The notes: generated by a model from the letters alone, not told the origin. Shown: positions 13,758-35,381, numbered from the stretch's first letter. The stretch is 64,000 bases of DNA from Paracoccaceae bacterium (GCA_047638395.1 JBLIMV010000006.1:58683-122682); one strand, 5' to 3'. Translations and numbers: made by a program.

Positions 13758-13816
13758 TCTTAATTCGAGACGCTACCGCTCAGATAATTTGTTTAGGCCC
13801 AACGGGGGGAAATGCG

Positions 13817-14878
13817 TTGCGCGGTAATTGGCACGGCAAAACTGTTATGATTACGGGTGTGTGCGGCACGGTTGGGGGCGAACTGCTCAGGCAGATTTCA
13901 GCTCTTTCACCCGCCGAGATCGTTGGTATTGATAACAACGAAAGCGATCTTTTCTTCCTCCGGGAGGAATATGCGGCACATCATTCGGTGCAGCTCACTA
14001 TCGGCGATATCCGGGACCGGGAAACCCTGACCGAAAAGATGCGTGGAATCGATATTGTGCTCCATGCCGCCGCCCTGAAACACGTTTTCCTGTGCGAGCA
14101 ATCGCCGCGTGATGCGGTACAGACCAACATCCACGGCACACAGAACGTGATCGATGCGGCCATCGCCAACGGCGTACAGCGCGTCCTGTTCACGTCTTCG
14201 GACAAGGCCGTTAACCCGACCAATGTTATGGGCACATCCAAGCTGATGGCCGAACGCCTGATGTCGGCCGCCAACGCGGAACGCCGCTCGGACGGCCCGA
14301 TCTTTGCATCGACCCGGTTCGGCAACGTGCTCGGATCGCGCGGATCCGTGATCCCGCTCTTCGAACGCCAGATCACAGCCGGCGGCCCGATCACGATCAC
14401 GGATGACGAGATGTCACGATTTATCATGACGCTGGAAGAAGCCGTCCGCCTGGTGATCGGCTCGACCTTCCTCGCACGTGGCGGCGAAGTGTTCGTGACC
14501 AAGATGCCCGTCCTTCGTATCGCCGATCTCGCCTGGTCGATGGTTCAGGACCTCGCACCGGTTCACGGCTTCAAACCTGACGATATCGGCATAGACATCG
14601 TCGGCAGCAGGCCGGGTGAAAAGCTTTACGAAGAACTTCTGAACGACGAGGAAACCCGCCGGACCGTGGAGACCGACGAGTATTTCATCATCCTGCCGGC
14701 GCTGAAGCCGCATTACGAGATCGTGCAATACGCCTATGTCGGGATGCGCGATAGCAAAGTGGACGAGCCATACAATTCCGCGCTCGCCCCGACGATGACG
14801 CGCGAGGAGGTCCGCGATTACCTCCGTCGCAATGAACTAATCCGTTTCTTGAAAGAGGACGAACTGCAATGCGCATAA
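13817..14878 (+). CDS. Short CapD/PseB/FnlA-type UDP-sugar 4,6-dehydratase
   Basis: ITGVCGTVG, HAAALKHV, SSDKAVNPTNVMGTSK, TRFGNVLGSRGSVIP, RPGEKLYEEL. Confidence 0.92.
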   Translation: MRGNWHGKTVMITGVCGTVGGELLRQISALSPAEIVGIDNNESDLFFLREEYAAHHSVQLTIGDIRDRETLTEKMRGIDIVLHAAALKHVFLCEQSPRDAVQTNIHGTQNVIDAAIANGVQRVLFTSSDKAVNPTNVMGTSKLMAERLMSAANAERRSDGPIFASTRFGNVLGSRGSVIPLFERQITAGGPITITDDEMSRFIMTLEEAVRLVIGSTFLARGGEVFVTKMPVLRIADLAWSMVQDLAPVHGFKPDDIGIDIVGSRPGEKLYEELLNDEETRRTVETDEYFIILPALKPHYEIVQYAYVGMRDSKVDEPYNSALAPTMTREEVRDYLRRNELIRFLKEDELQCA

Positions 14879-16023
14879 TTATACTTGGCGGCGACGGCTA
14901 TCTCGGCTGGCCCACTTCAATGGATATGGCTGCCGCTGGTCACGAGGTATGGGCGGTCGATAATTACATGCGCCGTAATATCGCGCAGGAAACGCAGTCC
15001 GAAGCGCTGCTGCCGACACCAAACCTGCACGAGCGCGCGGATATCTTCGAAGCCGCCACGGGTAAGAAGATCAATGTGGTCATCGGTGACTGCACCGATT
15101 TCCGCATGATGTCGGATCTGTTTGAAAAAGTGCAGCCGGAAGCCGTCATCCACTACGCCGAACAGCCATCCGCTCCCTATTCGATGATGGGGTATGAACA
15201 GGCGCGACGCACGCTGGACAACAACCTTCAGGCCACCTTCAACACTGTCTGGGCCGTGCTTGAGCATGCGCCGGACTGCCATATCATAAAGCTCGGTACG
15301 ATGGGCGAATATGGCACCCCGAATATCGATATCGAAGAAGGCTGGATCGACATCGAGCATAAGGGCCGAAAAGACAAATTCCTGTATCCCCGTGCCGCCG
15401 GATCGCTCTATCACACCACCAAAGTGCTCGATACCGACCTGTTGTGGTTCTATGTCCGGACTTACGGCATTCGCGCGACCGATCTGATGCAGGGGCCGGT
15501 ATACGGTCTGCACACAGATCAGACCGCCATCGACGAGCGGCTGATGCCGAACTTCCATTATGACGACATCTTCGGCACCGTTCTGAACCGGTTCCTCGTC
15601 CAGGCCGTCGCGGGCGTGCCGCTGACAGTCTATGGCAAGGGTGGCCAAACCCGTGGCTACCTGAACCTCAAAGACACGCTGCAATGCGTCGAACTGGCGA
15701 TGAACAGCCCGGTCGAGCAAGGCGATTTGCGTATCCTCAACCAGTTCACAGAACAGTTCTCGGTAAACGAACTTGCGGAGAAAATCACCCGCGTCGGCAA
15801 TGCTAACGGACTGAACGTCGAGATGAAGAACATCGAAAACCCCCGCAAGGAACGCGAGGAACACTATTACAATCCAGCCCATTCGGGCCTGACGGAGCTG
15901 GGGCTGAAACCTCACCACCTGACAGACGACGTCGTCGTCGACATGCTGGAGACCGTCAAACGCTATAGCAACCGGATCGATACGCGCAAAGTTATGCCCC
16001 GCGTCAATTGGAAGGCTGCCTGA
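14869..16023 (+). CDS. sqdB: UDP-sulfoquinovose synthase (SqdB/SQD1/Agl3 family)
   Basis: GGDGYLGWPT, HYAEQPSAPYSM, KLGTMGEYGTPNIDIEEG, YHTTKV, ATDLMQGPVYG, FGTVLNRF, PLTVYGKGGQTRG, ENPRKEREEHYY match SQD1-family signatures. Confidence 0.9.
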   Translation: MRIIILGGDGYLGWPTSMDMAAAGHEVWAVDNYMRRNIAQETQSEALLPTPNLHERADIFEAATGKKINVVIGDCTDFRMMSDLFEKVQPEAVIHYAEQPSAPYSMMGYEQARRTLDNNLQATFNTVWAVLEHAPDCHIIKLGTMGEYGTPNIDIEEGWIDIEHKGRKDKFLYPRAAGSLYHTTKVLDTDLLWFYVRTYGIRATDLMQGPVYGLHTDQTAIDERLMPNFHYDDIFGTVLNRFLVQAVAGVPLTVYGKGGQTRGYLNLKDTLQCVELAMNSPVEQGDLRILNQFTEQFSVNELAEKITRVGNANGLNVEMKNIENPRKEREEHYYNPAHSGLTELGLKPHHLTDDVVVDMLETVKRYSNRIDTRKVMPRVNWKAA

Positions 16024-17036
16024 TGCGCTGGCTCGTCACAGGTGGTTGTGGGTTTATCGGCACCAGCCTGATCCGCGAACTCGTTGCTGAAGGCGGACAC
16101 ACGATCCGGGTTCTCGACAATCTGACGGTCGGCACGCGTGCAGATCTGTCCGAAATCACCGGCTACCGCGAAACACCGCCGGGCGATGCACGGGCGATGA
16201 CGGATACTTTCGCGTCGGGAACTGTGGAGCTTATCGAAGGCGACATTCGGGACTCGGCAATGTGCCTGCGGGTGGCCGAAGGCGCAGAAGCGATCATTCA
16301 CCTCGCAGCGTCGACAGGCGTTGAGCCATCGGTGCTGGAACCCCGCTTCGACTGCGAATCAAATATCATCGGCACCCTTAACATGCTCGAAGCGGCCCGC
16401 CATGGCGGTGCAGACAGGTTTGTGTTTGCGTCATCCGGCGCACCGATCGGCGAATGCGAACCACCGATCCACGAAGAAATGGCGGCACATCCCGTCTCGC
16501 CCTACGGCGCCAGCAAACTTGCAGGCGAAGGATATTGCTCAGCCTATTTCCGGAGTTTTTCAGTGGAAACCGTCGCACTTCGGTTCGGCAATGTTTACGG
16601 GCCAGGATCGGGTCATAAATCGAGCGTGGTTGCCAAGTTCATTCAGAATGCGATGAAGGGACATAAGCTCGAAATTTATGGTAACGGCCGACAAACGCGC
16701 GATTTTATATACATCGGCGACCTCGTTCGCGCTGTGCGCAATGCTGCGACGAAGCCCAATATCGGCGGCGAGATCTTTCAGGTCGCGACAAATGCCGAGA
16801 CTACTGTCGGCGAGCTGGTCGATATCCTGGTCCCGGTGATGAAGCATGCTGGTATCGGCAATGCCGAGGTCATCCACGGCGAGGCGCGCACAGGCGATGT
16901 CATGCGCAATTTCTCCGACACGTCAAAGGCCGCGCGCGACCTCGACTGGAAAGCCGAAATCGATCTGCCGACCGGGCTTGGCCGAACCGTTCGCTGGTTC
17001 GTCGAGCGGGCAGAAAAGCAGTCGGCAGCAGCATGA
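16023..17036 (+). CDS. NAD-dependent epimerase/dehydratase (GalE-like)
   Basis: TGGCGFIG, SPYGASKLAGE (YxxxK), LRFGNVYGP, QTRDFIY; ATG overlaps the upstream TGA. Confidence 0.92.
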   Translation: MRWLVTGGCGFIGTSLIRELVAEGGHTIRVLDNLTVGTRADLSEITGYRETPPGDARAMTDTFASGTVELIEGDIRDSAMCLRVAEGAEAIIHLAASTGVEPSVLEPRFDCESNIIGTLNMLEAARHGGADRFVFASSGAPIGECEPPIHEEMAAHPVSPYGASKLAGEGYCSAYFRSFSVETVALRFGNVYGPGSGHKSSVVAKFIQNAMKGHKLEIYGNGRQTRDFIYIGDLVRAVRNAATKPNIGGEIFQVATNAETTVGELVDILVPVMKHAGIGNAEVIHGEARTGDVMRNFSDTSKAARDLDWKAEIDLPTGLGRTVRWFVERAEKQSAAA

Positions 17037-17129
17037 CCTTGAAACTTAACCCGATACAGGCCGGCGGCGCTTTTTCCGCGGGCACACCCGCATTTCGCGG
17101 CGTGAAGGCATAGTCGGAGACCCGGTCGA

Positions 17130-18623
17130 ATGACATCGATTCCGGCAATTGTATCGATCGACACCAAGGGCGAGCAGCAGGCTTCCTGGATTATCCTTTT
17201 TCTTGGGATTCTGTGTAGTACGGCGCTTGTCGTGTTCTCATCTGACGACATCGGCCTCAAGATCGCGGCGATGTTCGTCCTGTGCGGTGCAGCAAGTGCC
17301 GCGGTCAAGTTCGACATCGCCCACCCGTTCGTCTGGTTTGCCGGCGCCTTCACCTTGTACTCAATAAGTGGTCCGCTGCTCTTTCACATGGGCGTTCATC
17401 CTTATACCACGTGGGGCGGCTACCGGATCGAAGAGCTCAATTTTGCGTCGGCAATGGACTATCAGTTCTTCGCGCTACTTATCGCCCTCCTGGTTATCGG
17501 GCCCCGACGGGTGACCTTCGCCCATGCCATGACGACCCATGCATCGAGCGCGCTTTTTCGCGGCTCATTGCCTATTCTTGTTGCAGCAAGCGTCATCGGA
17601 CTCGTTAATATCTTTCAGATCCTGTCGCAGGATTTTTCGAGCAAAGGCGACGTCGTGCTGTCCGGTGACTGGACGACCCGCCTGAGCTTCGCGTTCAACA
17701 TTGCAGCCACCGCGCTTGGCGTGTTTCTCGCCAAACTGTTTTCCGAAGGCCGGCCGATGGCCGCCTATACCACGCTGATCATCGTGATCATGGTTGGCAT
17801 TGCGATGGTTCTGCTTATCGGCCAGCGGCATTTTCTGTTTCGCGCCGGGCTTGTCAGTATACTGGTCTTTCATGTTTTCCATCAGCGGATATCTATCCGC
17901 TCGCTGCTTCTCCTGGCTGGATTCGCGCTGACGCTTTCGTCAATTCTCGGCGGGTACAAGATGAGCCTGGTGGTGCAGGATCTCGCACCCGCCGGTAACG
18001 CCTCCCTGTGGGAGCAGACGCGCCTTGCGATTTCACTCAAGAATCCCGAATTCCTGAACAACTCGGAATTCCTGCAATACGTGAAAGTCGCTCTTGCCGC
18101 CGCCCTGGGCAGCGAAGCGATGACCCCGGGCAACAATATGGCAATGCTGCTCGCGCGGGTTCCACAGGACCTTCCCTACTTCTTCGGCGCCACGCTTCCG
18201 GGCGATTTACTTAGGTCAATTCTGCCGGGGTTTATTATTCAGCCCTATGTCGAAACAACCAGTGTCGTATATAATCGCCTGGTTTTTCCCAGCACGGTTG
18301 CGGCCGGCGGCGGCGTCGGGTTTACGATCGCCGGGTATGGTTATCTGCATTTCGGGAAACTCGGCCTTATCGCGATAATGCTCCTGATCGGCGCAACTCT
18401 GCGGCAAATTTACCACTGGGCTTCACGATCTTCGACCGGATTGATGTTCTATATCGGGTTCTTTCCGGTCGCCGTCTACGTCGCACGAAACGACATCACC
18501 GGGCCGCTTTCGCAAGGCCTCAAACATGTATTGCTGCCACTCGTCGCGATGACGGTCGTCGCCCATTTCATGGGTGGTCGCCCAATCCAAAAACCCCCGG
18601 AAATTGGCGGGACCACACGATGA
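17130..18623 (+). CDS. wzy: Wzy-type polysaccharide polymerase (multi-TM)
   Basis: About 11-12 hydrophobic segments, large loop, GGGVGFTIAGYGYLHFGKLG motif, cluster context. Confidence 0.7.
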   Translation: MTSIPAIVSIDTKGEQQASWIILFLGILCSTALVVFSSDDIGLKIAAMFVLCGAASAAVKFDIAHPFVWFAGAFTLYSISGPLLFHMGVHPYTTWGGYRIEELNFASAMDYQFFALLIALLVIGPRRVTFAHAMTTHASSALFRGSLPILVAASVIGLVNIFQILSQDFSSKGDVVLSGDWTTRLSFAFNIAATALGVFLAKLFSEGRPMAAYTTLIIVIMVGIAMVLLIGQRHFLFRAGLVSILVFHVFHQRISIRSLLLLAGFALTLSSILGGYKMSLVVQDLAPAGNASLWEQTRLAISLKNPEFLNNSEFLQYVKVALAAALGSEAMTPGNNMAMLLARVPQDLPYFFGATLPGDLLRSILPGFIIQPYVETTSVVYNRLVFPSTVAAGGGVGFTIAGYGYLHFGKLGLIAIMLLIGATLRQIYHWASRSSTGLMFYIGFFPVAVYVARNDITGPLSQGLKHVLLPLVAMTVVAHFMGGRPIQKPPEIGGTTR

Positions 18624-18672
18624 AAGTGCACTCGCAGAAAAATGCAGCACCGCTTACCGGCCACCGAAAAAC

Positions 18673-19356
18673 ATGGAAACTGCTATGACACCGACCTCTA
18701 TACTCCGCCAGATCTATGCTACATATGATTCTGGATATCAGCGCCGTAATGCGCTCTTCGCGATTCACCGGAAGATCATACAATCGCCACGCGTCACCCG
18801 GATGCTTTTTGGCATCGACGTCGACCGGACATTCGTCAAAAACGGCTTTTTCGATCTGACCACGCTGCTGCTTAAGTCCGAAATGCGGGCACGTCTGCGC
18901 GGTTTTTCCGATCCGAAACTGCTCGAAATTGGCGTTGGGCGTTTCGCCGTCCTGTCAGGATGTCTGTCAAACCACGTCAAACAGCGGATTGTCGCTTGCG
19001 ATTTTGATCCTATCGCGTACGAATCCGCGAAAGTTCACGTACACCGCAACGAGCTTGATATCGACGTTTTCCAGTCGGACGTATTCAGCGCAGTACCGGC
19101 CGGCAAGTACGATCTGATCTACTGGAATCTTCCCTACTACGACGACCCGGAACCCCTTCTGTCACGTCTGTTTGAAGCAGCTCCCGATCACCTGTCCGAA
19201 CGGGGGTCCATGACGCTTGGTTTTAATGGCAGGCCCCTGCCGGTCGCCACCGTGATCGATATTCTCGGACGATACCCCGGTCTCGAGGTCGAGAATGTGC
19301 GGAGCTACTGGTGGAACCTCCATGCGCTCGTTTCGATCAAACGCGCGTCGATCTGA
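18673..19356 (+). CDS. Class I SAM-dependent methyltransferase
   Basis: LLEIGVGRFA, VACDFD, SDVFS, YDLIYWNLPY; start uncertain (18673 or 18685). Confidence 0.75.
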   Translation: METAMTPTSILRQIYATYDSGYQRRNALFAIHRKIIQSPRVTRMLFGIDVDRTFVKNGFFDLTTLLLKSEMRARLRGFSDPKLLEIGVGRFAVLSGCLSNHVKQRIVACDFDPIAYESAKVHVHRNELDIDVFQSDVFSAVPAGKYDLIYWNLPYYDDPEPLLSRLFEAAPDHLSERGSMTLGFNGRPLPVATVIDILGRYPGLEVENVRSYWWNLHALVSIKRASI

Positions 19357-19375
19357 CGTGACACGGCAATGTTAC

Positions 19376-19390
19376 TTAACGCAAATTTAA
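19376..19390. promoter_or_regulatory. CtrA box (perfect)
   Basis: ttaa-cgcaaat-ttaa in AT-rich intergenic region. Confidence 0.7.
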
Positions 19391-19510
19391 ACCAATTGAT
19401 GAACTATTCGTTTCCACATCATGCACCTTTACCACCGCAAAATTGTCGCCAAATTGGCGAAAACCATCGACGACAATCTTTAGCCGGAAATTGAACAGGA
19501 CTTACCGGAC

Positions 19511-20461
19511 ATGAACTTCGCAGCAAAAATTTCGGAATCGGAATTCGTTACGCAGCCTCCATCCGATGACGCACTCATGGCCTGTCCCGTATGTCATCAT
19601 GAGACCCTGAACCATGGCGCTGACGAACTGGTTTGTGCGGGCTGTGAAACAGCGTTCAGAATCGATCGCGGCATCGTAGATTTTCGCCATGTCGATGAAA
19701 AATATCGGGCCGGCGAACACCGTGTCGACGACGAATTTGAAGCGCCCGACCCGACTGGGCTCGTCGAGAAAAAAGGCGCCGCCGATGTAATGGTCCAGCG
19801 TCTTTCAGACAGGGTCCGGCGCTTGAAGAATGAATTCGGCCACCTGAACCTTCTGGACGTCGGATTGTTCATGGGGGAAGGCGGCGGCCTGAAGCCGTTT
19901 TTCAAACCAATCGAAAAAGACATCGATCTGTATGTCGGCATCGATCCGTCTCCCCATGAATTGTTTTCAGACGCGGACCGCCCGGACCATATCCGGCTGA
20001 TGCGGTCGTACGGAGAATACCTGCCGCTACGCGGAGATCAGTTCAATTTTGTCGTGAGCATCGCATCAATGGACCATCTGTTCGATGCAGATCGGTGTCT
20101 TCGCGAAATACGCCGGGTGATGACGCCTGGAGGTGTCTTTTACACCCAGTTGAATAACGACGGCGCCTGGTTCAAACGCATATTTCCGGCAGCCGCCGAC
20201 CGCCGCCGCGAGGCGGCCAGCGAGTGGCATAATTATTTCTGGACCCTGTCTCAATATCAGACGCTGCTGAAAGACCATGGCTTCGAAATACTGGATAAGA
20301 GCTGCTATCGCTACAATCCGATGTTCGATAATTCGAAGATTGCCGCATCTCTCCCGGTGGCTCTCCAGAGCGGTATATCACGGATTATAGACCAGGTAGG
20401 TGACGTTGCCTTGCCGAGTATGGGTGGCAACTTCGCCGTTGCCTGCCGGCTACCCGGCTAG
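19511..20461 (+). CDS. Class I SAM methyltransferase with N-terminal Trm112-like Zn ribbon
   Basis: CPVC...CAGC ribbon; LLDVG, VGIDPS, EYLPL, EIRRVMTPGG. Confidence 0.85.
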   Translation: MNFAAKISESEFVTQPPSDDALMACPVCHHETLNHGADELVCAGCETAFRIDRGIVDFRHVDEKYRAGEHRVDDEFEAPDPTGLVEKKGAADVMVQRLSDRVRRLKNEFGHLNLLDVGLFMGEGGGLKPFFKPIEKDIDLYVGIDPSPHELFSDADRPDHIRLMRSYGEYLPLRGDQFNFVVSIASMDHLFDADRCLREIRRVMTPGGVFYTQLNNDGAWFKRIFPAAADRRREAASEWHNYFWTLSQYQTLLKDHGFEILDKSCYRYNPMFDNSKIAASLPVALQSGISRIIDQVGDVALPSMGGNFAVACRLPG

Positions 20462-20490: not shown

Positions 20491-21858
20491 ATGGGTCGAT
20501 TGACCACTTTCACCTCCAGCCTGTCCGGACGCTACCTCAAACCCGAAGATATTGTTACCGCCGTCGCCCGCCAGGGCGCTGGCGCGCTCGTCGTCAGAGT
20601 ATCCAGCCTTCTCATCCTGTTTGGCGTGCAGGCTCTTCTCGCACGGCTTTTGGGCGCCGATCAGTTTGGTGTCTACACGGTGGCACTTGCAGTCATGGGG
20701 GTATTGCAGCTTTTCGCCCGCCAGGGTTTCGAAATCGCTGCATCACGGTTTGTCGGCGCCTATTCAGGCGTCGATAACTGGGCGCTGCTGAGCGGATTCG
20801 TCAGAGCCAGCAGGATACTTGTTCTCGGCGGCGCGATCCTATTTTCGGCTGCGTTGCTGGTTGTTGCAAACCTCGTTGCCAACACACTCGGCGACGGCAT
20901 GCTCCACAGCCTTTGGCTGATTGCAGCGATTCTGCCGCTTTTTACTGTCCTGCAACTCGAAGCGGCGATTGTCCGAGGCATGGGACGGGCGAGCATCGCC
21001 GATATCCCGACATGGATTTTGCAGCCCCTGCTCCTTGCTGCGGGTGTCAGCACCGCCGTATTCCTCGCGGACGCTCCCGCACGCGCGCCGACAGTTTTGT
21101 CGGTATTCCTCGGGACGGCAGTATGTGTGGTGATCGTGCAACACATCATCATGATACGCGTACTGCCCCAAACGGTGCTTGATGCCACCCCGGAGTACCG
21201 CTGGGGCGAATGGATGAAAGCCGCTCCAGCCATGATGCTGTTCGCCGGCTCAGCGGTTTTGATCAGCCAGGCCAACACGGTTCTTCTGGGCGCGATGTCG
21301 AGCGCAGCAGAGGCCGGAATTTACAACATTTCGGGACGTATCGCTGGCATCCTGCAATTGGTGACATTCTGCTTTATCGGAGCGATCGGGCCAGTCGCAG
21401 CCCGGCTTCATGCCAAGGGCGACATGATCGAACTGGCCCGCGTCACCTCGATCGGTGTCCGCGTTGTTTTCGCCGTCGCGCTGATAGCCTCGATCATCCT
21501 TGTTATCGGTGGTGAACACATCCTCGCCATCTTCGGGGAAGAGTTCAGACAGGGGTATCACACGTTGCTCGTGCTCCTGATCGGGCAACTGTTCTGGGCG
21601 GCAACGGTGCCGGCGGGGGTCTTGCTCAACATGACCGGTCACCATAATGAATCGGGCAAAATTCTCATTGTCGCAGCTGCGGTCAACTTCGGGCTCTGCG
21701 CTCTGCTGATCCCGATCTACGGCAGCATGGGCGCAGCGATCGCAACATCTGTCGCCATCGTTTTGTGGAACGGGATCATGGCCTGGTCCGCCGAGCGCCG
21801 CGTCGGCATACGCGCATACCTGACATTCACCCGGACGACGACAGCTCGAAGTCTTTGA
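20491..21858 (+). CDS. wzx: Wzx flippase
   Basis: LLARLLGADQFGVY, about 12-14 TMs, LLIPIYGSMGAAIATS. Confidence 0.9.
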   Translation: MGRLTTFTSSLSGRYLKPEDIVTAVARQGAGALVVRVSSLLILFGVQALLARLLGADQFGVYTVALAVMGVLQLFARQGFEIAASRFVGAYSGVDNWALLSGFVRASRILVLGGAILFSAALLVVANLVANTLGDGMLHSLWLIAAILPLFTVLQLEAAIVRGMGRASIADIPTWILQPLLLAAGVSTAVFLADAPARAPTVLSVFLGTAVCVVIVQHIIMIRVLPQTVLDATPEYRWGEWMKAAPAMMLFAGSAVLISQANTVLLGAMSSAAEAGIYNISGRIAGILQLVTFCFIGAIGPVAARLHAKGDMIELARVTSIGVRVVFAVALIASIILVIGGEHILAIFGEEFRQGYHTLLVLLIGQLFWAATVPAGVLLNMTGHHNESGKILIVAAAVNFGLCALLIPIYGSMGAAIATSVAIVLWNGIMAWSAERRVGIRAYLTFTRTTTARSL

Positions 21859-24808: not shown

Positions 24809-25999
24809 ATGACCCAGAAACGCTTCCTCATCTTCGATGCGTATTACGGCACAGCGGGCGGTAATCAACGCTATATCCGCATGCTGTTCCAGCATGCGCG
24901 ACGAGATGGCTGGCAACCGACCCTGCTCTGCCCGGGAGACGGCAGGCTTGCAGACTCGGTGCGTGAAGCGGGCGGCGACGTTACCGTGGTGCCGCAATCC
25001 GCCCGGCTCGACCGGTATGGCGGCTCTGTGCTGAAGTCCGGTATATTCAGCCGTTTCGCAAGCCTGCTGGCGCTTCTGCTATACAATTTCCGGGTTCTCG
25101 CGACGTTGCGCGAAATACGGCCACAGGTCATCCAGTGCCATAATACACGCAGCCTGCTGATGGTCGTTCTCGCTGCAAAGATCGCACGGATACCGACCGT
25201 GCTGTTTATCAAATCGGAAATATCCAACCCGTTTCTTGACCGGGTCGGTATGAAACTCGCGAGCCGCGTCCTGTTTATCGCCGACGTGCTGATGCCGAAA
25301 AAACGGAAAGCCAAATACCGGAAGCTGCCGATCGGAATCGATTTCACAGACGTGGACGCAACGATTTCCCGGCGCGAGATCGACGGAGATCCGGAAGATC
25401 ACAAGGAACACCTGACCTTCGCATTTGCCGGCTGGCTTGTCCCCGCAAAGGGCATACATATCTTGCTTGATGCATTCGAGCGCGCCACGCACCAGATTTC
25501 CGACATCCGGCTTGAAATCATCGGCGATTCCGACGACGAGGAATACAAGGCGGAACTTAAGAATGTCGTGGCCTGGCAGAAACTGGAAAACCGGGTAACG
25601 TTCCATGGCTGGCGAGAAGACGTGCTTGACGCCCTCGACATCGCCGACATCTATGTATTGCCGTCCTTCACCGAAGGCATCCCCCGCTCCATCGTCGAAG
25701 CGATGGCGCTCGGCAAACCGGTTATTTCGACCACGGTTGGCGGCGTCCCTGAGTTGCTCGAAGGTGGCGAGCTCGGGATGATCGTGCCACCTAACGATTC
25801 CACGGCGCTCTCAAATGCCATGTATGACATGGCCGCCGACAAACCTCGGCGGGACGTATTTTCGCAGCGCGGCATAGCCCACGCGCGCGAGACCTATTCT
25901 TTCCAGAACCACCACGAAGCGCTGGAGCGCTTACTGGACGAAATCTCCAGAGACACCGCTCCGGCTAAACAACCGGTCGGTCAGGAGGCATCCGCCTGA
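24809..25999 (+). CDS. Glycosyltransferase family 4
   Basis: GWLVPAKG, VLPSFTEGIPRSIVEAMALGKPVI. Confidence 0.93.
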   Translation: MTQKRFLIFDAYYGTAGGNQRYIRMLFQHARRDGWQPTLLCPGDGRLADSVREAGGDVTVVPQSARLDRYGGSVLKSGIFSRFASLLALLLYNFRVLATLREIRPQVIQCHNTRSLLMVVLAAKIARIPTVLFIKSEISNPFLDRVGMKLASRVLFIADVLMPKKRKAKYRKLPIGIDFTDVDATISRREIDGDPEDHKEHLTFAFAGWLVPAKGIHILLDAFERATHQISDIRLEIIGDSDDEEYKAELKNVVAWQKLENRVTFHGWREDVLDALDIADIYVLPSFTEGIPRSIVEAMALGKPVISTTVGGVPELLEGGELGMIVPPNDSTALSNAMYDMAADKPRRDVFSQRGIAHARETYSFQNHHEALERLLDEISRDTAPAKQPVGQEASA

Positions 26000-29064: not shown

Positions 29065-30975
29065 ATGTGCGGTATCGCAGGCTTCATTCACCCGGAGGCA
29101 GGCCGGTTCAGGCCACAGCTTGAGGCCATGCTGGGCCGGACCCGCCACCGCGGCCGCGACGACAGCGGCATATGGCATGGCAGCTCGTGCCTCCTGGGCC
29201 ATAACCGTCTGTCCATCATCGATCTGTCAGACGCCGGCCATCAGCCAATGGGGAACGAGGACGGCTCCATTCAGGTCATCCTGAATGGCGAGATATACAA
29301 TTACCGTGAGCTTCGCACCGAATTGCAGGCGAAGGGACACCGGTTCCGCAGCGATTCCGACACCGAAGTCCTGCCGCATCTATACGAGGAATACGGACCC
29401 GGGTTCGTTTCCCATCTACGCGGCATGTTTGCCATTGCCCTGTGGGACATGCCGAACAGAAAGCTCATCCTGGCGCGCGACCGCGCCGGCAAGAAGCCGC
29501 TTTTCTACGCCCGCATCAAGGGCGGGCTCGTATTCGCCTCGGAAATGAAAGCATTCTTCGGATTGCCGGAGGTCGATTTTTCGGTAAACGAACAGGCTGT
29601 CCACGATTACCTCACCTTTGGTGTCGTCCCGGGCGAAACCACCGTGTATCAGGGTATCTCTCGCGTCCCACCGGCCAATGTCATGACAATCGGCGAAACC
29701 GGGGCAATTTCCACAGAGACATATTGGACACCCGATTTCGCCGAGAAAAGAGATATCGGATTTGACGATGCCGTAGACCTGGTCGAGGAAACGCTCCGCG
29801 AAGCCGTCAAAATTCGGCTGCGCAGCGACGTGCCACTGGGGTGCTTCCTGTCGGGTGGGATAGATTCCGGGCTGATCTGTGCGCTGGCCGCCAAGGAACT
29901 CGACCGTCCTCTAAAAACATTCTCTATCGGTTTCGCTGATCAGGGATTCGATGAGCGCCCCTTGGCAAAACTTGTCGCCGATCAATACGAAACCGATCAC
30001 CGCGACTTCGTGCTGGAATCCAACATCGCGGACGTGGAGCGGATTATCTCGCATTATGACGAGCCCTATTCCGACGCCTCGGCCCTGCCCTCCTTCGCCG
30101 TCACGCAAATGGCCGCAGAAGATGTCAGCGTTGTGCTGAATGGCGATGGTGGCGACGAGATATTTGCCGGCTATCGCCATTTTATTGCGGCGCGATCAGC
30201 AGATCGGCTGGACCAGGCGCTGACCCCCGGCCTGAAGCGCCTCATGGCCCAGATCACGGAACGGCTGCCGGCACCCCGCAGGGGGCGCACGCCATACCAG
30301 TTTCTCCATCGTTTCCTCCGCGTTGCCGCCCAGGAACCGGCGGAACGATTTGTTGCCCTGACAAGCGACCGGCTGAGCGAAGCGGACAAGGCGTCGCTTT
30401 ATGGCGATGACACAGCGTTCGCACCGTCGGTGCGTTGGGCGGGAGACGTGGACACCGACGGGCTCGGCCCCGTCGACGCGATGCTCAAGCGCGATTTCCA
30501 CCGGCTGCTCGGCGATGATCACCTGGTAAAAATGGATATGGCCTCCATGGCCTGGACGCTCGAAGCGCGATCGCCGTTTCTCGACCATGGACTGATCGAT
30601 CTCGCGGCATCCCTGCCCGAAGACATCAAGCTCGGTGGCAACAAAACCAAGCCATTATTGCGCGCGCTCGCCGCGCGACATCTGCCGGATGCCGTCGTTA
30701 ATGCGCCGAAACGCGGCTTCGAAATTCCGCTTCTGCGGTGGATGAGCCAGGACCTGAACGCCATGTTGCGCGAGCGCGTACTCGATCCGTCTTCGTACTG
30801 CATGACCCGGTTTAACGGCCGGGCAGTGGAGGCGCTTCTGAATGGCGACGGCTGGGACCGCAAGCGCTGGGCCGCGTGTGTCTGGGGGCTTCTCTGCCTT
30901 GAAATATGGTGGGAAAATTACCGCAATTCGGTTGTGCCGGCGGCCATCCAGGCAACGTCTTCGCAGGCCGCCTAG
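29065..30975 (+). CDS. asnB: Asparagine synthetase-like glutamine amidotransferase (glycan amidation)
   Basis: MCGIAG, HRGRD, RLSIID, NGEIYN, LSGGIDS, GDGGDE, EARSPFLD, KRGF. Confidence 0.93.
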   Translation: MCGIAGFIHPEAGRFRPQLEAMLGRTRHRGRDDSGIWHGSSCLLGHNRLSIIDLSDAGHQPMGNEDGSIQVILNGEIYNYRELRTELQAKGHRFRSDSDTEVLPHLYEEYGPGFVSHLRGMFAIALWDMPNRKLILARDRAGKKPLFYARIKGGLVFASEMKAFFGLPEVDFSVNEQAVHDYLTFGVVPGETTVYQGISRVPPANVMTIGETGAISTETYWTPDFAEKRDIGFDDAVDLVEETLREAVKIRLRSDVPLGCFLSGGIDSGLICALAAKELDRPLKTFSIGFADQGFDERPLAKLVADQYETDHRDFVLESNIADVERIISHYDEPYSDASALPSFAVTQMAAEDVSVVLNGDGGDEIFAGYRHFIAARSADRLDQALTPGLKRLMAQITERLPAPRRGRTPYQFLHRFLRVAAQEPAERFVALTSDRLSEADKASLYGDDTAFAPSVRWAGDVDTDGLGPVDAMLKRDFHRLLGDDHLVKMDMASMAWTLEARSPFLDHGLIDLAASLPEDIKLGGNKTKPLLRALAARHLPDAVVNAPKRGFEIPLLRWMSQDLNAMLRERVLDPSSYCMTRFNGRAVEALLNGDGWDRKRWAACVWGLLCLEIWWENYRNSVVPAAIQATSSQAA

Positions 30976-30992
30976 CCACAAAGCGTTCTGTT

Positions 30993-31007
30993 TCAAGGGT
31001 TTATTAA
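30993..31007. promoter_or_regulatory. CtrA-like box (1 mismatch)
   Basis: tcaa-gggttta-ttaa(c) upstream of degT; additional GTTAAC half-site nearby. Confidence 0.45.
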
Positions 31008-31057
31008 CCGCGCCGGGTTAACCTAAATGAACCTGAAAAAACAGCGAATTAATAGCG

Positions 31058-32179
31058 ATGACCACCGCCCAGTCGATCCCGTTTTTTAACTATCCCGCCC
31101 TTTTCAAAAAAGACGAAAGCAAGATGATGGAACTGCTCCGGGACGTATTGTCCCGCGGCGCCTTCATCCTGCAGAGAGACCTCACCGAGTTCGAGGATGC
31201 GCTGAAGGAATACCTCGGCGTCAAATATGTCTATGGCGTCGCCGACGGCACCAACGCGATGATCCTGGGCTTGCGGGCAATGGGCATCGGCGAAGGCGAC
31301 GAGGTTATCGTGCCATCGCACACATACATCGCGACCGCTGCTGCCGTACATTTCGTCGGCGCCACGCCTGTTCTGGCCGATATGAGCCCCGATCACATGA
31401 TCGATCCGGCATCGATCGAGCGGAAAATTACCGAGCGCACGGCTGCCATCATGCCGGTTCAGCTGAACGGGCGAACCTGTGACATGGATGCGATTCAGGC
31501 AATCGTCGACAAACATAATTTGCGCCTGTGCGAAGATGCGGCCCAGGCACTTGGATCGAGCTTCAAGGGCAAATGTGCCGGCACGTTCGGCGAGTTTGGC
31601 AGTTTCTCGTTTTATCCCGCGAAGGTTCTCGGCAGCTTCGGAGACGGCGGTGCCGTGGTATCCGACGACGACGAGATCGGCCGCAAGCTTGGCCTGTTGC
31701 GCGATCACGGCCGGGACGAAGACGGCAATGTTGTTGACTGGGGCACGAACTCGCGCCTCGACAACGTGCAGGCCGCCGTTCTGAACTACAAGTTCGGCAC
31801 CTACGATCAGGACATCGAACGCCGCCGCGATATCGCGCGCATGTATCACGAACGGCTGAGTGGCCTCAACGACATTACGTTGCCGCCGTCACCCGATGCA
31901 GACCCACGTCATTTCGATGTCTATCAGAACTACGAAATCGAATCCGGCAGCCGCGAGGCTCTGCGCGCTTACATGTCCGACAGCGATATCGGCACGCTGA
32001 TCCAGTGGGGCGGTACACCGGTCCATACCTTTAGTGAACTCGGTTTCAACGAAAGCCTGCCCGCCACCGAAAAATTCTTCGAACGCTGCTTCATGCTGCC
32101 GATGCATACCGCCCTTTCCGACGAGGATGTCGAGCGGATCTGTAGCGTCATCCACGAATTTTACCGCACGCAGGTCTAA
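31058..32179 (+). CDS. DegT/DnrJ/EryC1/StrS PLP aminotransferase
   Basis: IGEGDEVIVP, EDAAQALG, FSFYPAKVLG...DGGA, NSRLD. Confidence 0.95.
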   Translation: MTTAQSIPFFNYPALFKKDESKMMELLRDVLSRGAFILQRDLTEFEDALKEYLGVKYVYGVADGTNAMILGLRAMGIGEGDEVIVPSHTYIATAAAVHFVGATPVLADMSPDHMIDPASIERKITERTAAIMPVQLNGRTCDMDAIQAIVDKHNLRLCEDAAQALGSSFKGKCAGTFGEFGSFSFYPAKVLGSFGDGGAVVSDDDEIGRKLGLLRDHGRDEDGNVVDWGTNSRLDNVQAAVLNYKFGTYDQDIERRRDIARMYHERLSGLNDITLPPSPDADPRHFDVYQNYEIESGSREALRAYMSDSDIGTLIQWGGTPVHTFSELGFNESLPATEKFFERCFMLPMHTALSDEDVERICSVIHEFYRTQV

Positions 32180-32182
32180 CTC

Positions 32183-33424
32183 ATGAGCTCGGACAACACC
32201 GCCCGCCGCAAGGATTCCCCGGCTTCTCGCCGGACAGGACCGCTGGACACCTCTGTGCCAGCCATGGACCCGGACCTACAGCATGAGATAGGCGATGTCC
32301 GCGATATTATCGGTCGGCTGCAGAACGTCGCAGAGTCGGGATTTTTTGGCCCCGATGAAGCGGTAAAAGCGTCGCCGGCAACCCCGACAACGCTGGACAA
32401 TCTTGCCGACCCGCGACAGTACACGGACGCGCTTGATCTTGGCATCTGGTCGGCAGAAGACACCCGCAAGTTCCTGCGCATGCAAATTCTGATCCGCAGT
32501 GTTGAAGACCGCCTCGGCAAAATGGTCGAGGCCGGCGATATTGTCTGCCCCGTCCACCTCGCGATCGGACAGGAGGCACCACCGACCGGCATTGCGCACT
32601 GGCTTACCGCAGATGACCGCGTCTTCGGCGCGCATCGCAGCCATGGCCATTATTTGTCTCTGGGCGGTAACGTGTATCAGCTTTTTGCAGAGGTTCTGGG
32701 CCGCGCCGACGGGTGTTCCCGCGGTATGGGCGGCTCCATGCATCTGTATGCCCCCGAGGTCGGCTTCCAGGGTTCAGTCCCGATTGTCGCCGCGACGGTT
32801 CCGGTAGCGGTTGGCGCCGCCATGGCGGCGAAAATGTCTGGCAGCCCGCATGTCGCCGTTGCCTATTTCGGCGATGGTGCCGTCGAAGAAGGCGGCGTGC
32901 ATGAATCCCTGAACCTTGCCGCGCAGATGAAACTGCCGGTGCTGTTTGTCTGCGAAAACAATCTTTACGCCAGCCATATGGATATCGCGCAACGACAGCC
33001 GAACGATCGCACTGCGCGCATCGCAGAAGCCCATTCGGTCGCCACGTCGGTTATCGACGGCAATGATGTTATCGCGGTTGCCGAAGCGGCGGGAGATCTT
33101 ATTCATAACGCGCGCTGCGGCAACGGCCCCGGTTATCTTGAAGCCGTGACCTATCGCTGGCGCGGTCATGTCGGCCCGGACGAGAATATCGATGTCGGCC
33201 TGCGACGGTCGCCTGAGGAACTGGCAGCCTGGAAACAGCGCGACCCGGTCAGGCGTCTGCAAACCGCAATGACGGATCGCGGCGACATTGCCGCCGACGA
33301 AGCCGAGGCGATCACCGCCGAAATCGACGCGGTCGTCGATGAAGCGGCCACACGCGCATACGATGCGCCCTGGCCGGAGCAGGACGCCCTGCTCGAATAC
33401 GTCTACGTGAACAATCAGGACTAA
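32183..33424 (+). CDS. ThDP-dependent dehydrogenase E1 alpha subunit (PDH/acetoin type)
   Basis: HLAIGQEA, HRSHGH, GMGGSMH, YFGDGA..EG..HESLN, CENN, TYRWRGHVG. Confidence 0.92.
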   Translation: MSSDNTARRKDSPASRRTGPLDTSVPAMDPDLQHEIGDVRDIIGRLQNVAESGFFGPDEAVKASPATPTTLDNLADPRQYTDALDLGIWSAEDTRKFLRMQILIRSVEDRLGKMVEAGDIVCPVHLAIGQEAPPTGIAHWLTADDRVFGAHRSHGHYLSLGGNVYQLFAEVLGRADGCSRGMGGSMHLYAPEVGFQGSVPIVAATVPVAVGAAMAAKMSGSPHVAVAYFGDGAVEEGGVHESLNLAAQMKLPVLFVCENNLYASHMDIAQRQPNDRTARIAEAHSVATSVIDGNDVIAVAEAAGDLIHNARCGNGPGYLEAVTYRWRGHVGPDENIDVGLRRSPEELAAWKQRDPVRRLQTAMTDRGDIAADEAEAITAEIDAVVDEAATRAYDAPWPEQDALLEYVYVNNQD

Positions 33425-33427
33425 CCA

Positions 33428-34444: not shown

Positions 34445-34637
34445 AGGGACCGCATCCCGGCAACCCTTGCCCTGTAAAGTCCCTCGGTTTCCGCCAAGCG
34501 GCAGAACCTGCCGGGAACACCGATCCGCTCCCAAACCACCCATAATTTTCTCAATAAATACAACGACTTAGAAACAGATAAACTGGCCCGATTCTTGCAA
34601 ATGATTCCGACGAACTTCCTTGGCGGATTGTCAGAAT

Positions 34638-35381
34638 ATGGTCAAACGTTTTATCGATTTCTTCTCTTCGGCGCTGGGGCTTATCGCGGTGTCGCCCATC
34701 ATGCTGCCGGTCATGCTGCTTGTCTGGCTACAGGATCGGCATTCGCCGTTTTACGTCGCCGACCGGGTCGGCTATCGCGGGAAGAACTTCCGCATGGTCA
34801 AGCTGCGCTCGATGGTGATCAACGCTGATAAATCGGGGGTCGATTCAACCTCGGCAAACGACATGCGGATCACCGCAATTGGCCATTTCATTAGACGCTT
34901 CAAACTCGACGAACTGAGCCAGCTTTGGAATGTGATGATCGGCGATATGAGCCTTGTCGGCCCGCGCCCCAACGTGGCCAGCGAGGTCGACCGTTATACC
35001 GACGAAGAGCGTGGACTGCTCGAAGCGAAGCCGGGCGTTACCGATATCTCGTCGATCATCTTTTCAGATGAAGGCGACATCCTGCGCGACAGCGAGGATC
35101 CGGATCTTGATTACAACCGCCTTATCCGCCCGTGGAAAAGCCGGACCGGATTGTTCTATATCGAAAAGCAGGGCCTCGCCCTCGATCTCGCGCTGATCGG
35201 CCTGACGATTGTCGCCATTATCTCAAAACGGCGGGCGTTGTCGATTCTGTCGGCAATCCTGGAGCGGCTCGATGCGCCCGACGAACTCATCGCCGTGGCG
35301 GCAAGAGAACAGGACCTCACGCCGCATGCACCGCCTGGCGCCGACCGCCCTGTGGTCGCCGCCGACCTCGGCCACGGCTAA
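34638..35381 (+). CDS. Small monotopic phosphoglycosyltransferase (initiating sugar transferase)
   Basis: KRFIDF, KLRSM, RITAIGHFIRRFKLDELSQLWNV..GDMSLVGPRP, KPGVT. Confidence 0.92.
   Translation: MVKRFIDFFSSALGLIAVSPIMLPVMLLVWLQDRHSPFYVADRVGYRGKNFRMVKLRSMVINADKSGVDSTSANDMRITAIGHFIRRFKLDELSQLWNVMIGDMSLVGPRPNVASEVDRYTDEERGLLEAKPGVTDISSIIFSDEGDILRDSEDPDLDYNRLIRPWKSRTGLFYIEKQGLALDLALIGLTIVAIISKRRALSILSAILERLDAPDELIAVAAREQDLTPHAPPGADRPVVAADLGHG

What the first reader, a model, noticed from the sequence alone, without database searches (positions are those of the whole stretch)
13817..18623. UDP-sulfoquinovose synthase embedded in a Wzx/Wzy surface-polysaccharide operon, not a sulfolipid operon
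Seen: 14869-16023 carries the SQD1/SqdB motif set. It overlaps a 4,6-dehydratase upstream and a GalE-like epimerase downstream, followed by wzy. No sqdX/sqdD/sqdC-like gene is recognisable next to it. Established: bacterial SqdB normally feeds sulfolipid SQDG, while the archaeal homolog Agl3 puts sulfoquinovose into Sulfolobus N-glycans. From memory, KLGTMGEYGTPNIDIEEG resembles the plant/cyanobacterial/archaeal type rather than the Rhodobacter/Sinorhizobium type. Inference: this bacterium polymerises a C6-sulfonated sugar (sulfoquinovose, or via the epimerase a sulfofucose-like or N-acetylated analogue) into capsule, EPS or O-antigen, a poorly described organosulfonate sink.
Basis: partly seen in the sequence, partly recalled or inferred. 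Interest (0 to 1): 0.82.

Follow-up and report, generated by a model that had tools for sequence, protein, structure and literature searches.

The report
Sulfosugar synthase module in polysaccharide operon
A marine bacterium carries a close relative of the plant sulfolipid enzyme SQD1 locked together with two dedicated sugar-modifying enzymes at the head of a surface-polysaccharide operon, which points to a sulfonated sugar in bacterial surface glycans, a use of this chemistry that we did not find described for bacteria.

Summary
ORF 14869-16023 is a full-length SQD1/SqdB homologue (442 bits to Arabidopsis SQD1, gapless; TMG, GEYG and YHxxK motifs kept). It overlaps a CapE/PglF/Pen-like dehydratase upstream and a GalE/WbpP-like 4-epimerase downstream. 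The three genes head a roughly 30 kb Wzx/Wzy/Wzz cluster.

New here:
- The protein belongs to a well-separated clade, sister to the SQD1-like sulfolipid enzymes.
- The dehydratase gene lies next to sqdB in 61 of the 76 related loci where sqdB could be called.
- In an even sample of 300 Pseudomonadota genomes, that dehydratase subfamily occurs in 12 genomes. All 12 are among the 13 that carry this SqdB clade.
- The epimerase subfamily occurs in 6 genomes, 5 of them carrying this SqdB clade.
- 0 of 26 SQD1-like Chloroflexota loci have the dehydratase.
- Neighbours are mostly flippases, glycosyltransferases and sulfotransferases. In 10 of 80 loci there is a CysH (sulfite-forming) gene.
- No SqdD/GT8 was found in the genome.

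Caveats:
- The Arg whose Ala mutant inactivates Agl3 is Pro in all 78 clade members.
- The genome shows no CysH.
- Nothing is shown biochemically.

Verdict: a dedicated nucleotide-sulfosugar module feeding a surface glycan, and probably not plain sulfolipid synthesis. The exact sugar is open.

The parts
13817..14878 (+). DEH: soluble Polysacc_synt_2 dehydratase homologue (CapE/FnlA/PglF/Pen-like), with an SDK ... MxxxK motif
   Evidence: Pfam PF02719 326 bits. NCBIfam PseB 270 and FnlA 237 bits, both below cut-off. Best solved relatives: Pen 6bwc 262 bits, FnlA 211, CapE 206, FlaA1 188, PglF 177. The D and K of the SDK motif and the MxxxK lysine are invariant in 64 of 64 family members, the Met in 63 of 64.
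14869..16023 (+). SqdB-like SQD1-family SDR, with Pro at the Arg101 position
   Evidence: NF041015 460 bits (cut-off 575). SQD1 442 bits, gapless. TMG, GEYG and YHxxK are invariant and Pro replaces Arg101 in 78 of 78 clade members.
16023..17036 (+). EPI: GalE/WbpP/PelX-like extended SDR, a putative C4-epimerase. The ORF list starts it at TTG 16008; ATG 16023 overlaps the sqdB stop.
   Evidence: Pfam Epimerase 185 bits. Best solved relatives are 6wjb/6wj9, T. maritima GalE 4zrm, WbgU and WbpP. The start context is seen.
17130..18623 (+). Wzy-like repeat-unit polymerase
   Evidence: TIGR04370 41.7 bits (cut-off 40). PF14296 18.8 bits, below cut-off.
18574..20461 (+). Two methyltransferases (18574-19356 MTS type; 19511-20461 Methyltransf_11)
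20491..21858 (+). Wzx-type flippase
   Evidence: PF01943 62 bits
21919..24781 (+). Polysaccharide deacetylase (21919-23004) and NodU-like carbamoyltransferase (22961-24781)
24809..25999 (+). GT4 glycosyltransferase
   Evidence: PF00534 and PF13692
25999..26880 (+). Sulfotransferase (PAPS-dependent family)
   Evidence: PF13469 88 bits
26877..29061 (+). Weak deacetylase-like ORF (26877-27845) and a second GT4. The GT4 ORF is listed from 27364, but its GT domains begin at residue 182.
29065..34444 (+). AsnB-like amidotransferase, DegT aminotransferase, and E1 alpha and E1 beta thiamine-enzyme subunits
34620..35381 (+). Initiating phosphoglycosyl transferase (Bac_transf)
   Evidence: PF02397 164 bits
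37626..39038 (+). Wzy_C / O-antigen-ligase-family membrane protein
   Evidence: PF04932 64 bits
39364..41607 (-). Wzz/GNVR chain-length regulator fused to a P-loop (tyrosine-kinase-type) domain
41717..43855 (-). Membrane-bound WbpM/PglF-type Polysacc_synt_2 dehydratase (a second, generic one)
   Evidence: PF02719 360 bits at residues 345-636 of 712

Best explanation
Genes 13817-17036 form a dedicated three-enzyme nucleotide-sugar module: a CapE/PglF/Pen-like dehydratase homologue, an SQD1-family enzyme and a GalE-like 4-epimerase. The genes overlap and so are probably translationally coupled, and they stand at the head of a Wzx/Wzy-dependent surface-glycan operon.

Inferred mechanism: the SQD1-family enzyme oxidises C4 of a UDP-hexose, forms the 4-keto-5,6-ene and adds sulfite at C6, as SQD1 and Agl3 do. 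This gives a UDP-6-deoxy-6-sulfo-hexose. The two dedicated partners act in the same pathway, either by preparing the substrate or by converting the product, for example by C4 epimerisation to a sulfofucose-type sugar. The cluster's glycosyltransferases then build the sugar into an undecaprenyl-linked repeat unit. That unit is flipped by Wzx, polymerised by Wzy and further sulfated, carbamoylated and methylated.

Shown here: homology, conserved catalytic motifs, gene order, clade structure, and co-occurrence of the three subfamilies.

Inferred, not shown: sulfite use, the identity of the sugar, the order of the steps, and the final acceptor (EPS, capsule, O-antigen or protein).
For: SQD1 homology:
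- Gapless alignment at 442 bits, with TMG, GEYG, YHxxK and the Agl3-His95 equivalent present.
- These motifs are invariant in 78 of 78 clade members.

Genomic context:
- The cluster holds Wzx, Wzy, Wzz, Bac_transf, two GT4 glycosyltransferases, a sulfotransferase and a carbamoyltransferase.

Synteny:
- Among the best 80 of 591 related loci, sqdB could be called in 76.
- The dehydratase gene is adjacent in 61 of those 76: 50 upstream on the same strand, 6 downstream on the same strand, 5 divergent.
- The epimerase gene lies within 3 genes in 23 of 76.

Neighbours:
- 129 of the 369 neighbours were scanned. They are led by Wzx (14), GT1 (10), GT2 (8), PAPS reductase (5), sulfotransferase (5) and Wzy_C (4).
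- CysH, above its curated cut-off, is present in 10 of 80 loci, mostly as CysH-SDR-DEH-SqdB.

Co-occurrence in 300 evenly drawn Pseudomonadota genomes:
- This SqdB clade is in 13 genomes.
- The dehydratase subfamily (at least 50% identical, 341-486 bits; the next hit scores 232 bits) is in 12 genomes, all among those 13.
- The epimerase subfamily is in 6 genomes, 5 of them among those 13 and on the same contig.

Contrast and phylogeny:
- 0 of 26 SQD1-like Chloroflexota loci have the dehydratase.
- The clade is separated from SQD1-like enzymes with support 98 and 97.
- SqdB and dehydratase distance matrices correlate: Mantel r 0.56, equalled in 0 of 999 permutations.

Distribution and missing lipid genes:
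- No SqdD or GT8 was found in the genome.
- Distribution among kin is patchy: 3 of 40 relatives have a homologue, and 2 of those are this clade.
Against: - The score is below NCBIfam's equivalog cut-off (460 against 575).
- Arg101 is Arg in SQD1, in Agl3 and in the S. meliloti and Marinovum SqdB. Its Ala mutant is inactive in Agl3. It is Pro here and in 78 of 78 clade members. This is softened by natural R/P/H variation within SQD1-like Chloroflexota genes: 18 R, 4 P and 4 H of 26.
- The genome's only PF01507 gene is CysD, so no CysH or sulfite source was identified. The assembly is 92.9% complete.
- Only 10 of 80 loci carry CysH.
- SQD1 and Agl3 need no helper enzyme, so the role of the dehydratase is unexplained.
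- A GT4 sulfolipid synthase of the SqdX type could not be tested for, because no reference sequence was available.
- No Wza/Poly_export gene lies in the cluster; three copies lie elsewhere in the genome.
- No sulfonated sugar has been demonstrated in any of these bacteria.
Confidence: 0.58

Rival explanations
1. Ordinary sulfolipid synthesis. The enzyme makes UDP-sulfoquinovose for SQDG, a transferase encoded elsewhere (an SqdX-like GT4) puts it on diacylglycerol, and the polysaccharide context is incidental.
For: The protein is close to SQD1. The genome has many GT4 genes that could not be classified. sqdB and sqdX are unlinked in some cyanobacteria, according to passages of the review PMC13436972.
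Against: - The genes overlap two dedicated sugar-modifying genes at the head of a Wzx/Wzy operon.
- The clade is distinct from SQD1-like enzymes, and polysaccharide genes flank it across phyla.
- No SqdD or GT8 was found.
- Only 2 of 40 relatives carry this clade, which is unlike a housekeeping lipid gene.
- A preprint reports SqdB hits in all its hypersaline samples but 0-1 SqdX hits (10.64898/2026.10.19.760023, passages).
Confidence: 0.1
2. Not a sulfonating enzyme. The Pro101 clade has been recruited, together with the dehydratase, to a sulfur-free step of 6-deoxy-hexosamine synthesis. Examples would be processing a 5,6-ene or a 4-keto intermediate, as Pal does after Pen.
For: - The Arg that is essential in Agl3 is lost in 78 of 78 clade members.
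- The partnership with a UDP-GlcNAc-dehydratase homologue is near-obligate: 12 of 13 genomes.
- The dehydratase's best solved relative is Pen, a 5,6-dehydratase whose product is handed to a second SDR.
- CysH is present in only 10 of 80 loci and was not found in this genome.
Against: - Residues particular to SQD1 and Agl3 are invariant in the clade: Met of TMG (M145A is inactive in Agl3), GEYG, and His of YHxxK.
- CysH inserted directly into the cassette in several phyla is hard to explain without sulfite.
- R/P/H vary naturally at position 101 among SQD1-like genes, some of which have an adjacent GT4.
Confidence: 0.2
3. The dehydratase and epimerase make a separate companion sugar, such as QuiNAc or FucNAc for the reducing end. 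They only travel with sqdB and do not act on the same molecule.
For: The dehydratase keeps the full D-K and MxxxK set of true 4,6-dehydratases (motif table in PMC8987622). DegT (14 loci) and small Bac_transf genes (9 loci) occur in the loci.
Against: - Generic dehydratases of this family are common: 102 of 301 genomes have one at E 1e-60 or better. This subfamily is found in 12, all with the SqdB clade.
- The window already has a WbpM/PglF-type dehydratase for that job.
- No glycosyltransferase is conserved with the pair.
Confidence: 0.12

Closest known systems
SQD1 (Arabidopsis thaliana UDP-sulfoquinovose synthase; PDB 1qrr, 1i24)
   Same: Same length and fold family. The alignment is gapless at 442 bits. 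The GxxGxxG, TMG, GEYG and YHxxK motifs are the same, and the 18-mer KLGTMGEYGTPNIDIEEG is identical.
   Different: - It lies in a separate clade, sister to SQD1-like enzymes. The SQD1-like representative P0005 scores 540 bits to SQD1.
- Arg101 is Pro.
- It is linked to a dehydratase, an epimerase and Wzx/Wzy genes instead of a sulfolipid transferase.
Agl3 (Sulfolobus acidocaldarius), which supplies sulfoquinovose to N-glycans
   Same: It is the precedent for this enzyme family feeding a glycan rather than a lipid. It shares the catalytic motifs. It makes a UDP-Glc-5,6-ene when sulfite is absent (PMC4388408, passages).
   Different: - The query scores below the NCBIfam NF041015 cut-off. That this model is built on the archaeal Agl3 type is my guess from the control tally.
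- Agl3 has Arg101, and its R101A mutant is inactive.
- Its neighbours are a pyrophosphorylase, a kinase and a GT, not a dehydratase.
SqdB of the alphaproteobacterial sqdBDC operon (S. meliloti, Marinovum)
   Same: Same enzyme family, and bacterial.
   Different: It is only 39-40% identical. It has GTMGVYG and Arg101. It is followed by the GT8 SqdD and the SDR SqdC. One relative of the window's organism carries this type instead.
Pen and Pal of Bacillus thuringiensis (a split UDP-GlcNAc dehydratase pathway)
   Same: Pen is the best solved relative of the upstream gene (262 bits). It is a precedent for one SDR releasing a 5,6-ene that a second SDR processes (PMC8987622, passages).
   Different: The window's enzyme has Met where Pen has the catalytic Tyr. 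This makes its motif set CapE/PglF-like. That CapE also has Met at this position is recalled; the review passages I read give it only for PglF/WbpM. No activity has been tested.
C4-epimerases PelX, WbpP, WbgU and GalE
   Same: These are the best solved relatives of the downstream gene, at 133-161 bits. That 6wjb/6wj9 is PelX is recalled; the PDB title gives only the family name.
   Different: The subfamily was found in 6 of 300 sampled genomes, 5 of them beside this SqdB clade. The residue aligned with the Ser of PelX's HSKAD stretch is Asn (read by eye).

Membership tests
UDP-sulfoquinovose synthase (SQD1/SqdB/Agl3) | Full-length extended-SDR architecture with an N-terminal GxxGxxG | tested here: met
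   GGDGYLGW is at residues 7-14. The alignment to SQD1 over residues 2-382 has no gaps.
UDP-sulfoquinovose synthase (SQD1/SqdB/Agl3) | The [ST]MG ... Yx3K signature with His after the Tyr (motif from PMC8987622 Table 1) | tested here: met
   GTMGEYG and YHTTK are present and invariant in 78 of 78 clade members.
UDP-sulfoquinovose synthase (SQD1/SqdB/Agl3) | Equivalents of Glu147, Tyr148 and His95 (Agl3 mutants are impaired or inactive) | tested here: met
   GEYG and HYAEQ are present.
UDP-sulfoquinovose synthase (SQD1/SqdB/Agl3) | The Arg of EQRSAP (Arg101; R101A is inactive in Agl3) | tested here: not met
   It is Pro in the query and in 78 of 78 clade members. It is Arg in SQD1, Agl3, S. meliloti and Marinovum. 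Among 26 SQD1-like Chloroflexota loci the residue is R in 18, P in 4 and H in 4.
UDP-sulfoquinovose synthase (SQD1/SqdB/Agl3) | Curated equivalog score (NF041015, 575 bits) | tested here: not met
   460 bits
UDP-sulfoquinovose synthase (SQD1/SqdB/Agl3) | Sulfite-dependent conversion of UDP-glucose to UDP-sulfoquinovose | not testable with these tools
   This needs an enzyme assay.
Sulfolipid (SQDG) pathway | A sulfoquinovosyl transferase: SqdD (GT8), with or without SqdC, or SqdX/SQD2 (GT4) | tested here: inconclusive
   SqdD gave no tblastn hit at E 1e-3 or better, and PF01501 gave 0 matches, in a 92.9% complete assembly. SqdX could not be tested because no reference sequence could be obtained.
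Wzx/Wzy-dependent polysaccharide locus | Flippase, polymerase, chain-length regulator and initiating phosphoglycosyl transferase together | tested here: met
   Wzx PF01943 62 bits; Wzy TIGR04370 41.7 bits (cut-off 40); Wzz/GNVR/AAA_31; Bac_transf 164 bits.
Wzx/Wzy-dependent polysaccharide locus | An outer-membrane export protein (Wza/Poly_export) in the locus, as in group 1 capsule or EPS systems | tested here: not met
   None lies in the window. Three copies lie on contigs C35, C32 and C5.

The most novel reading that the evidence does not exclude
The dehydratase and the Pro101 SqdB form a split, two-enzyme route to a sulfonated sugar that has not been described. By analogy with Pen and Pal, the dehydratase homologue would turn UDP-GlcNAc into a 5,6-ene or 4-keto-5,6-ene, and the SqdB-like enzyme would sulfonate it to UDP-6-sulfo-QuiNAc. 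The dedicated epimerase would then give the galacto (sulfofucose-type) form.

The module occurs in about 4% of sampled Pseudomonadota genomes and in many other phyla. It would therefore be a widespread, unrecognised bacterial source of C-sulfonated sugars in EPS or LPS. It would also be a candidate for the unknown biosynthesis of rare sulfosugars such as sulfofucose.
Probability: 0.3. Interest if true: 0.85.

Novelty: new variant of a known kind. Interest (0 to 1): 0.72.

Why it matters
Sulfoquinovose is treated as a product of phototroph sulfolipids, with the Sulfolobus N-glycan as the one glycan case. A 2026 review of bacterial SQ cycling does not use the words polysaccharide or capsule at all (PMC13436972, term search of the text). 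A 2025 paper states that no biosynthetic pathway for sulfofucose is known (PMC12421959, passages).

A dedicated three-gene module sits inside surface-glycan loci of Pseudomonadota, Chloroflexota, Actinomycetota, Bacteroidota, Myxococcota, Planctomycetota and other phyla. This would have three consequences:
- It adds a non-lipid, heterotroph-made pool of C-sulfonated sugar to the sulfur cycle.
- It explains environmental 'orphan' SqdB hits that have no SqdX.
- It warns against using sqdB as a sulfolipid marker.

It also gives enzymologists a natural Arg101-to-Pro variant and a partner enzyme with which to dissect the SQD1 mechanism.

Tried and rejected
- RNA evidence: no RNA holder was listed for 13817-18623.
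- Cyanobacterial SqdB and SqdX references could not be obtained. The genome-contig scan keeps only the best 80 loci, and none is cyanobacterial. The 50% representatives and cluster look-ups carry no organism names. The best 120 of the 90% clusters are all at least 73% identical to the query.
- A metagenome scan with P0049, meant to test another Pro-type clade, did not complete three times. The genome search samples were used instead. P0049's own clade was not met in them, so the context of the other Pro-type clades stays untested apart from 2 P0018-type loci, neither with the dehydratase.
- SqdB fusions of about 800 aa turned out not to be glycosyltransferase fusions. They are intein-bearing proteins or Aminotran_5 fusions.
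- The promoter and terminator scan of 12000-21000 gave counts at the level of the shuffles.
- The SQD1 structure paper (PMC23906) is not held, so the structural role of Arg101 is unknown to me. The idea that it binds NAD or sulfite is a guess.
- My first parse of tblastn hits picked cross-hits between SDR families. The counts given in this report come from the family clustering.
- My ORF caller missed sqdB in 4 of 80 loci.
- The IQ-TREE run with 15 representatives gave only 47 support at the clade's base, with 4 long-branch representatives inside it. The supported split (98 and 97) comes from FastTree after I dropped 11 long-branch representatives.
- Complex prediction and structure prediction were not used. 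A heterodimer of two SDRs could pass through the generic SDR interface, so a pass would not have changed my odds.
- Supplements of papers were not asked for.

Full report
**What is there.** The window (G000 contig C6, about 58% G+C) carries a run of same-strand genes from 13817 to about 39000.

The central ORF, 14869-16023 (384 aa), matches the NCBIfam UDP-sulfoquinovose synthase model over its whole length. The score is 460 bits against a curated cut-off of 575. It aligns without a gap to Arabidopsis SQD1 at 441.8 bits, E 2e-131.

It keeps the features listed for SQD1 and Agl3 in a 2022 review (PMC8987622, passages) and in the Agl3 mutagenesis paper (PMC4388408, passages). It is the only family member in the genome.

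The upstream ORF (13817-14878) overlaps it by 10 nt. The downstream ORF most likely starts at the ATG that overlaps the sqdB stop codon (TGATG).

**The neighbours in the window.**
- The upstream protein is a soluble Polysacc_synt_2 enzyme (326 bits). Its solved relatives score as follows: Pen 262 bits, FnlA 211, CapE 206, FlaA1 188, PglF 177. 6BWC is Pen, a UDP-GlcNAc 5,6-dehydratase that was crystallised as an active-site double mutant whose wild type has D-K (PMC8987622). The window protein has S-D-K and M-x3-K, that is, Met in place of the catalytic Tyr. The review lists this for PglF/WbpM; that CapE shares it is my recollection.
- The downstream protein is an extended SDR whose best solved relatives are C4-epimerases: 6wjb/6wj9, T. 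maritima GalE, WbgU and WbpP.
- Then follow a Wzy-like polymerase (TIGR04370 41.7 bits, just over the cut-off of 40), two methyltransferases, a Wzx flippase, a deacetylase, a NodU-like carbamoyltransferase, two GT4 glycosyltransferases, a sulfotransferase, an AsnB-like amidotransferase, a DegT aminotransferase, E1 alpha and beta subunits, a Bac_transf initiating transferase and a Wzy_C-family protein.
- On the other strand lie a Wzz-kinase and a membrane WbpM/PglF-type dehydratase.
- No Wza gene is in the cluster; three lie elsewhere in the genome.

**Is the context general?** A scan of one genome per species found 591 relatives. The best 80 loci (62-95% identical) come from many phyla. I called genes with a simple caller of my own and clustered them.
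- sqdB was called in 76 of 80 loci.
- The dehydratase family is adjacent in 61 of 76: 50 upstream on the same strand, 6 downstream on the same strand, 5 divergent.
- A window-like epimerase (at least 42% identical) is within three genes in 23 of 76.
- A second SDR type is within three genes in 10 of 76.
- Of the 12 loci with neither dehydratase nor epimerase, two (L020, L079) have a dehydratase hit by tblastn, and several are cut by contig ends.
- Other recurrent families are DegT (14 loci), a CysH family (10 loci), small Bac_transf (9 loci) and CysN/C (7 loci).
- The CysH family is above the curated cut-off for phosphoadenylyl-sulfate reductase: 275 and 235 bits against 154. It typically stands as CysH-SDR-DEH-SqdB.

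A Pfam scan covered 129 of the 369 neighbours lying within five genes in 58 loci. It is led by Wzx-type flippases (14), GT1 (10), GT2 (8), PAPS reductase (5), sulfotransferases (5) and Wzy_C (4).

**Are the partners dedicated?** I tested this in an evenly drawn sample of 300 Pseudomonadota genomes.
- SqdB-family hits occur in 13 genomes (14 loci). All are 55-76% identical to the query. Pro is at position 101 wherever my pattern could read it, which was 13 of 14 loci.
- Searching the same sample with the dehydratase gave 102 of 301 genomes at E 1e-60 or better, G000 included, but with a sharp gap. Thirteen loci in 12 genomes score 341-486 bits (50-65% identity). Everything else scores 232 bits or less.
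- Those 12 genomes are all among the 13 SqdB-positive ones. The exception, G194, is 78% complete.
- In two genomes the pair lies 2.5 and 5.4 kb apart on one contig.
- The epimerase subfamily (E 1e-70 or better) is in 6 genomes. Five are SqdB-positive, with the gene on the same contig. The sixth hit sits at a contig end.
- Distance matrices of SqdB and dehydratase over 60 loci correlate (Mantel r 0.56, equalled in 0 of 999 permutations). Shared ancestry of hosts contributes to this figure.

Kin are not independent, so I give no probability. Even so, the pattern argues that all three enzymes serve one pathway.

**Relation to known enzymes.**
- The S. meliloti and Marinovum SqdB proteins are 39-40% identical to the query. 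They are followed by a GT8 gene, and in Marinovum also by an SDR gene, which I read as sqdD and sqdC.
- The representative P0005 carries the SQD1 motifs. It scores 540 bits to SQD1, against 442 for the query.
- In a sample of 201 Chloroflexota genomes, 27 have a family member. One of these, G517, is unpublished and was left out of my analysis.
- classed 34 loci, 8 of them from the four named genomes. The 26 SQD1-like loci (56-64% identical to P0005) have the dehydratase in 0 of 26, and some have an adjacent GT4. All 4 query-clade loci in that set have it.
- A FastTree of 128 rows puts all 72 dehydratase-linked rows, the query and 18 unlinked rows in one clade (support 98, stem 0.20). Its sister clade of 33 rows holds the SQD1-like and P0018-type sequences (support 97) and contains no linked row.
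- For that tree I had dropped 11 long-branch 50% representatives. With 15 representatives kept, IQ-TREE gives the same grouping, but with four long-branch representatives inside the clade and only 47 support at its base.
- Sato (PMC6946739, passages) describes green-lineage SQD1 as grouping with 'green bacterial' enzymes, which fits.

**A difference in the active-site region.** The Arg of E-Q-R-S-A-P (Arg101) is present in SQD1, in Agl3 (read from the mutagenic primer) and in S. meliloti, Marinovum and Pseudonocardia. R101A makes Agl3 inactive (Table 1 of PMC4388408). The query and all 78 clade sequences have Pro.
- Among 83 full-length 50% representatives of the family, 16 have Arg, 62 have Pro and 5 have another residue.
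- This lowers the claim 'it is a UDP-sulfoquinovose synthase' but is not decisive. Within the SQD1-like Chloroflexota loci the residue varies naturally: R in 18, P in 4, H in 4.
- I could not inspect the structure, so the residue's role is unknown to me.

**Sulfite supply.** In this genome the only PF01507 gene is CysD, next to CysN/C. A sulfite/nitrite-reductase-type gene exists, and no Xsc scores above its cut-off. The sulfite source here is therefore open; the assembly is 92.9% complete.

**Distribution among kin.** Three of 40 relatives have a homologue. Two congeners (97% and 95% identical) keep the triad but differ just downstream: one has the Wzy gene, the other a Wzx-like gene. One other genus has the Arg-type, S. 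meliloti-like gene instead. This mosaic pattern is typical of surface-glycan loci.

**Literature.** Four full-text searches were run:
- sulfoquinovose, polysaccharide, sqdB, O-antigen;
- UDP-sulfoquinovose synthase, exopolysaccharide, gene cluster, capsule;
- sulfofucose, 6-C-sulfo, 6-deoxy-6-sulfo, sulfoquinovosamine, 6-sulfoquinovose;
- sulfosugar and related terms.

From the listings, and from the passages I read, none showed a paper describing a C-sulfonated sugar in a bacterial polysaccharide or the dehydratase-SqdB pairing. The library lacks most subscription journals, and supplements were not seen, so this is no proof of absence.

**Verdict.** The gene is not part of a recognisable sulfolipid operon. 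It heads a surface-glycan operon as one of three dedicated enzymes. My best explanation (0.58) is a sulfite-dependent route to a 6-sulfo-hexose built into the glycan. The roles of the partner enzymes, the exact sugar and even sulfite use remain inferences.

Noticed in passing
proteins P0006, P0016, P0078, P0125 (50% representatives): Some SqdB-family proteins of 750-1108 aa carry inteins with LAGLIDADG or Hint domains inserted in the enzyme.
   Followed up: partly
proteins P0106, P0126, P0130, P0135: SqdB-family domains are fused to a class-V aminotransferase (cysteine-desulfurase-like) domain. These have Cys or Ser at the Arg101 position. This may hint that the position relates to the sulfur donor.
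   Followed up: partly
L010 8926-11149 and 19327-20541 (Rubrobacteraceae MAG); also G342, G343 and G129: Some genomes hold two or three SqdB-family genes. In L010 a dehydratase-linked copy and a second copy of another clade lie about 8 kb apart in one cluster. G129 has two dehydratase-linked copies.
   Followed up: partly
L057, L065, L068, L072 (Rhizobiaceae MAGs): A subclade without the dehydratase has sqdB followed by a GT4, one or two ADH_zinc_N/GFO_IDH_MocA fusion proteins of about 730 aa, and another GT4.
   Followed up: no
window 32183-34444: Thiamine-dependent E1 alpha and E1 beta subunits, with no E2 or E3, sit inside the glycan operon next to DegT and AsnB-like genes. This suggests an unusual acyl or keto-acid decoration of an amino sugar.
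   Followed up: no
window 6043-9888: A TetR regulator, a GFO/IDH/MocA oxidoreductase, DUF993 (607 bits) and a xylose-isomerase-like TIM-barrel protein form a small putative sugar-catabolic cluster.
   Followed up: no
window 35410-36156 and 36724-37563; also 12853-13746: These ORFs inside or at the edge of the glycan operon have no Pfam family match above threshold.
   Followed up: no
G000 contig C52 4834-7520 (L088): CysD and a CysN/C fusion lie together. This gives PAPS for the cluster's sulfotransferase, but no CysH was found in the assembly.
   Followed up: yes
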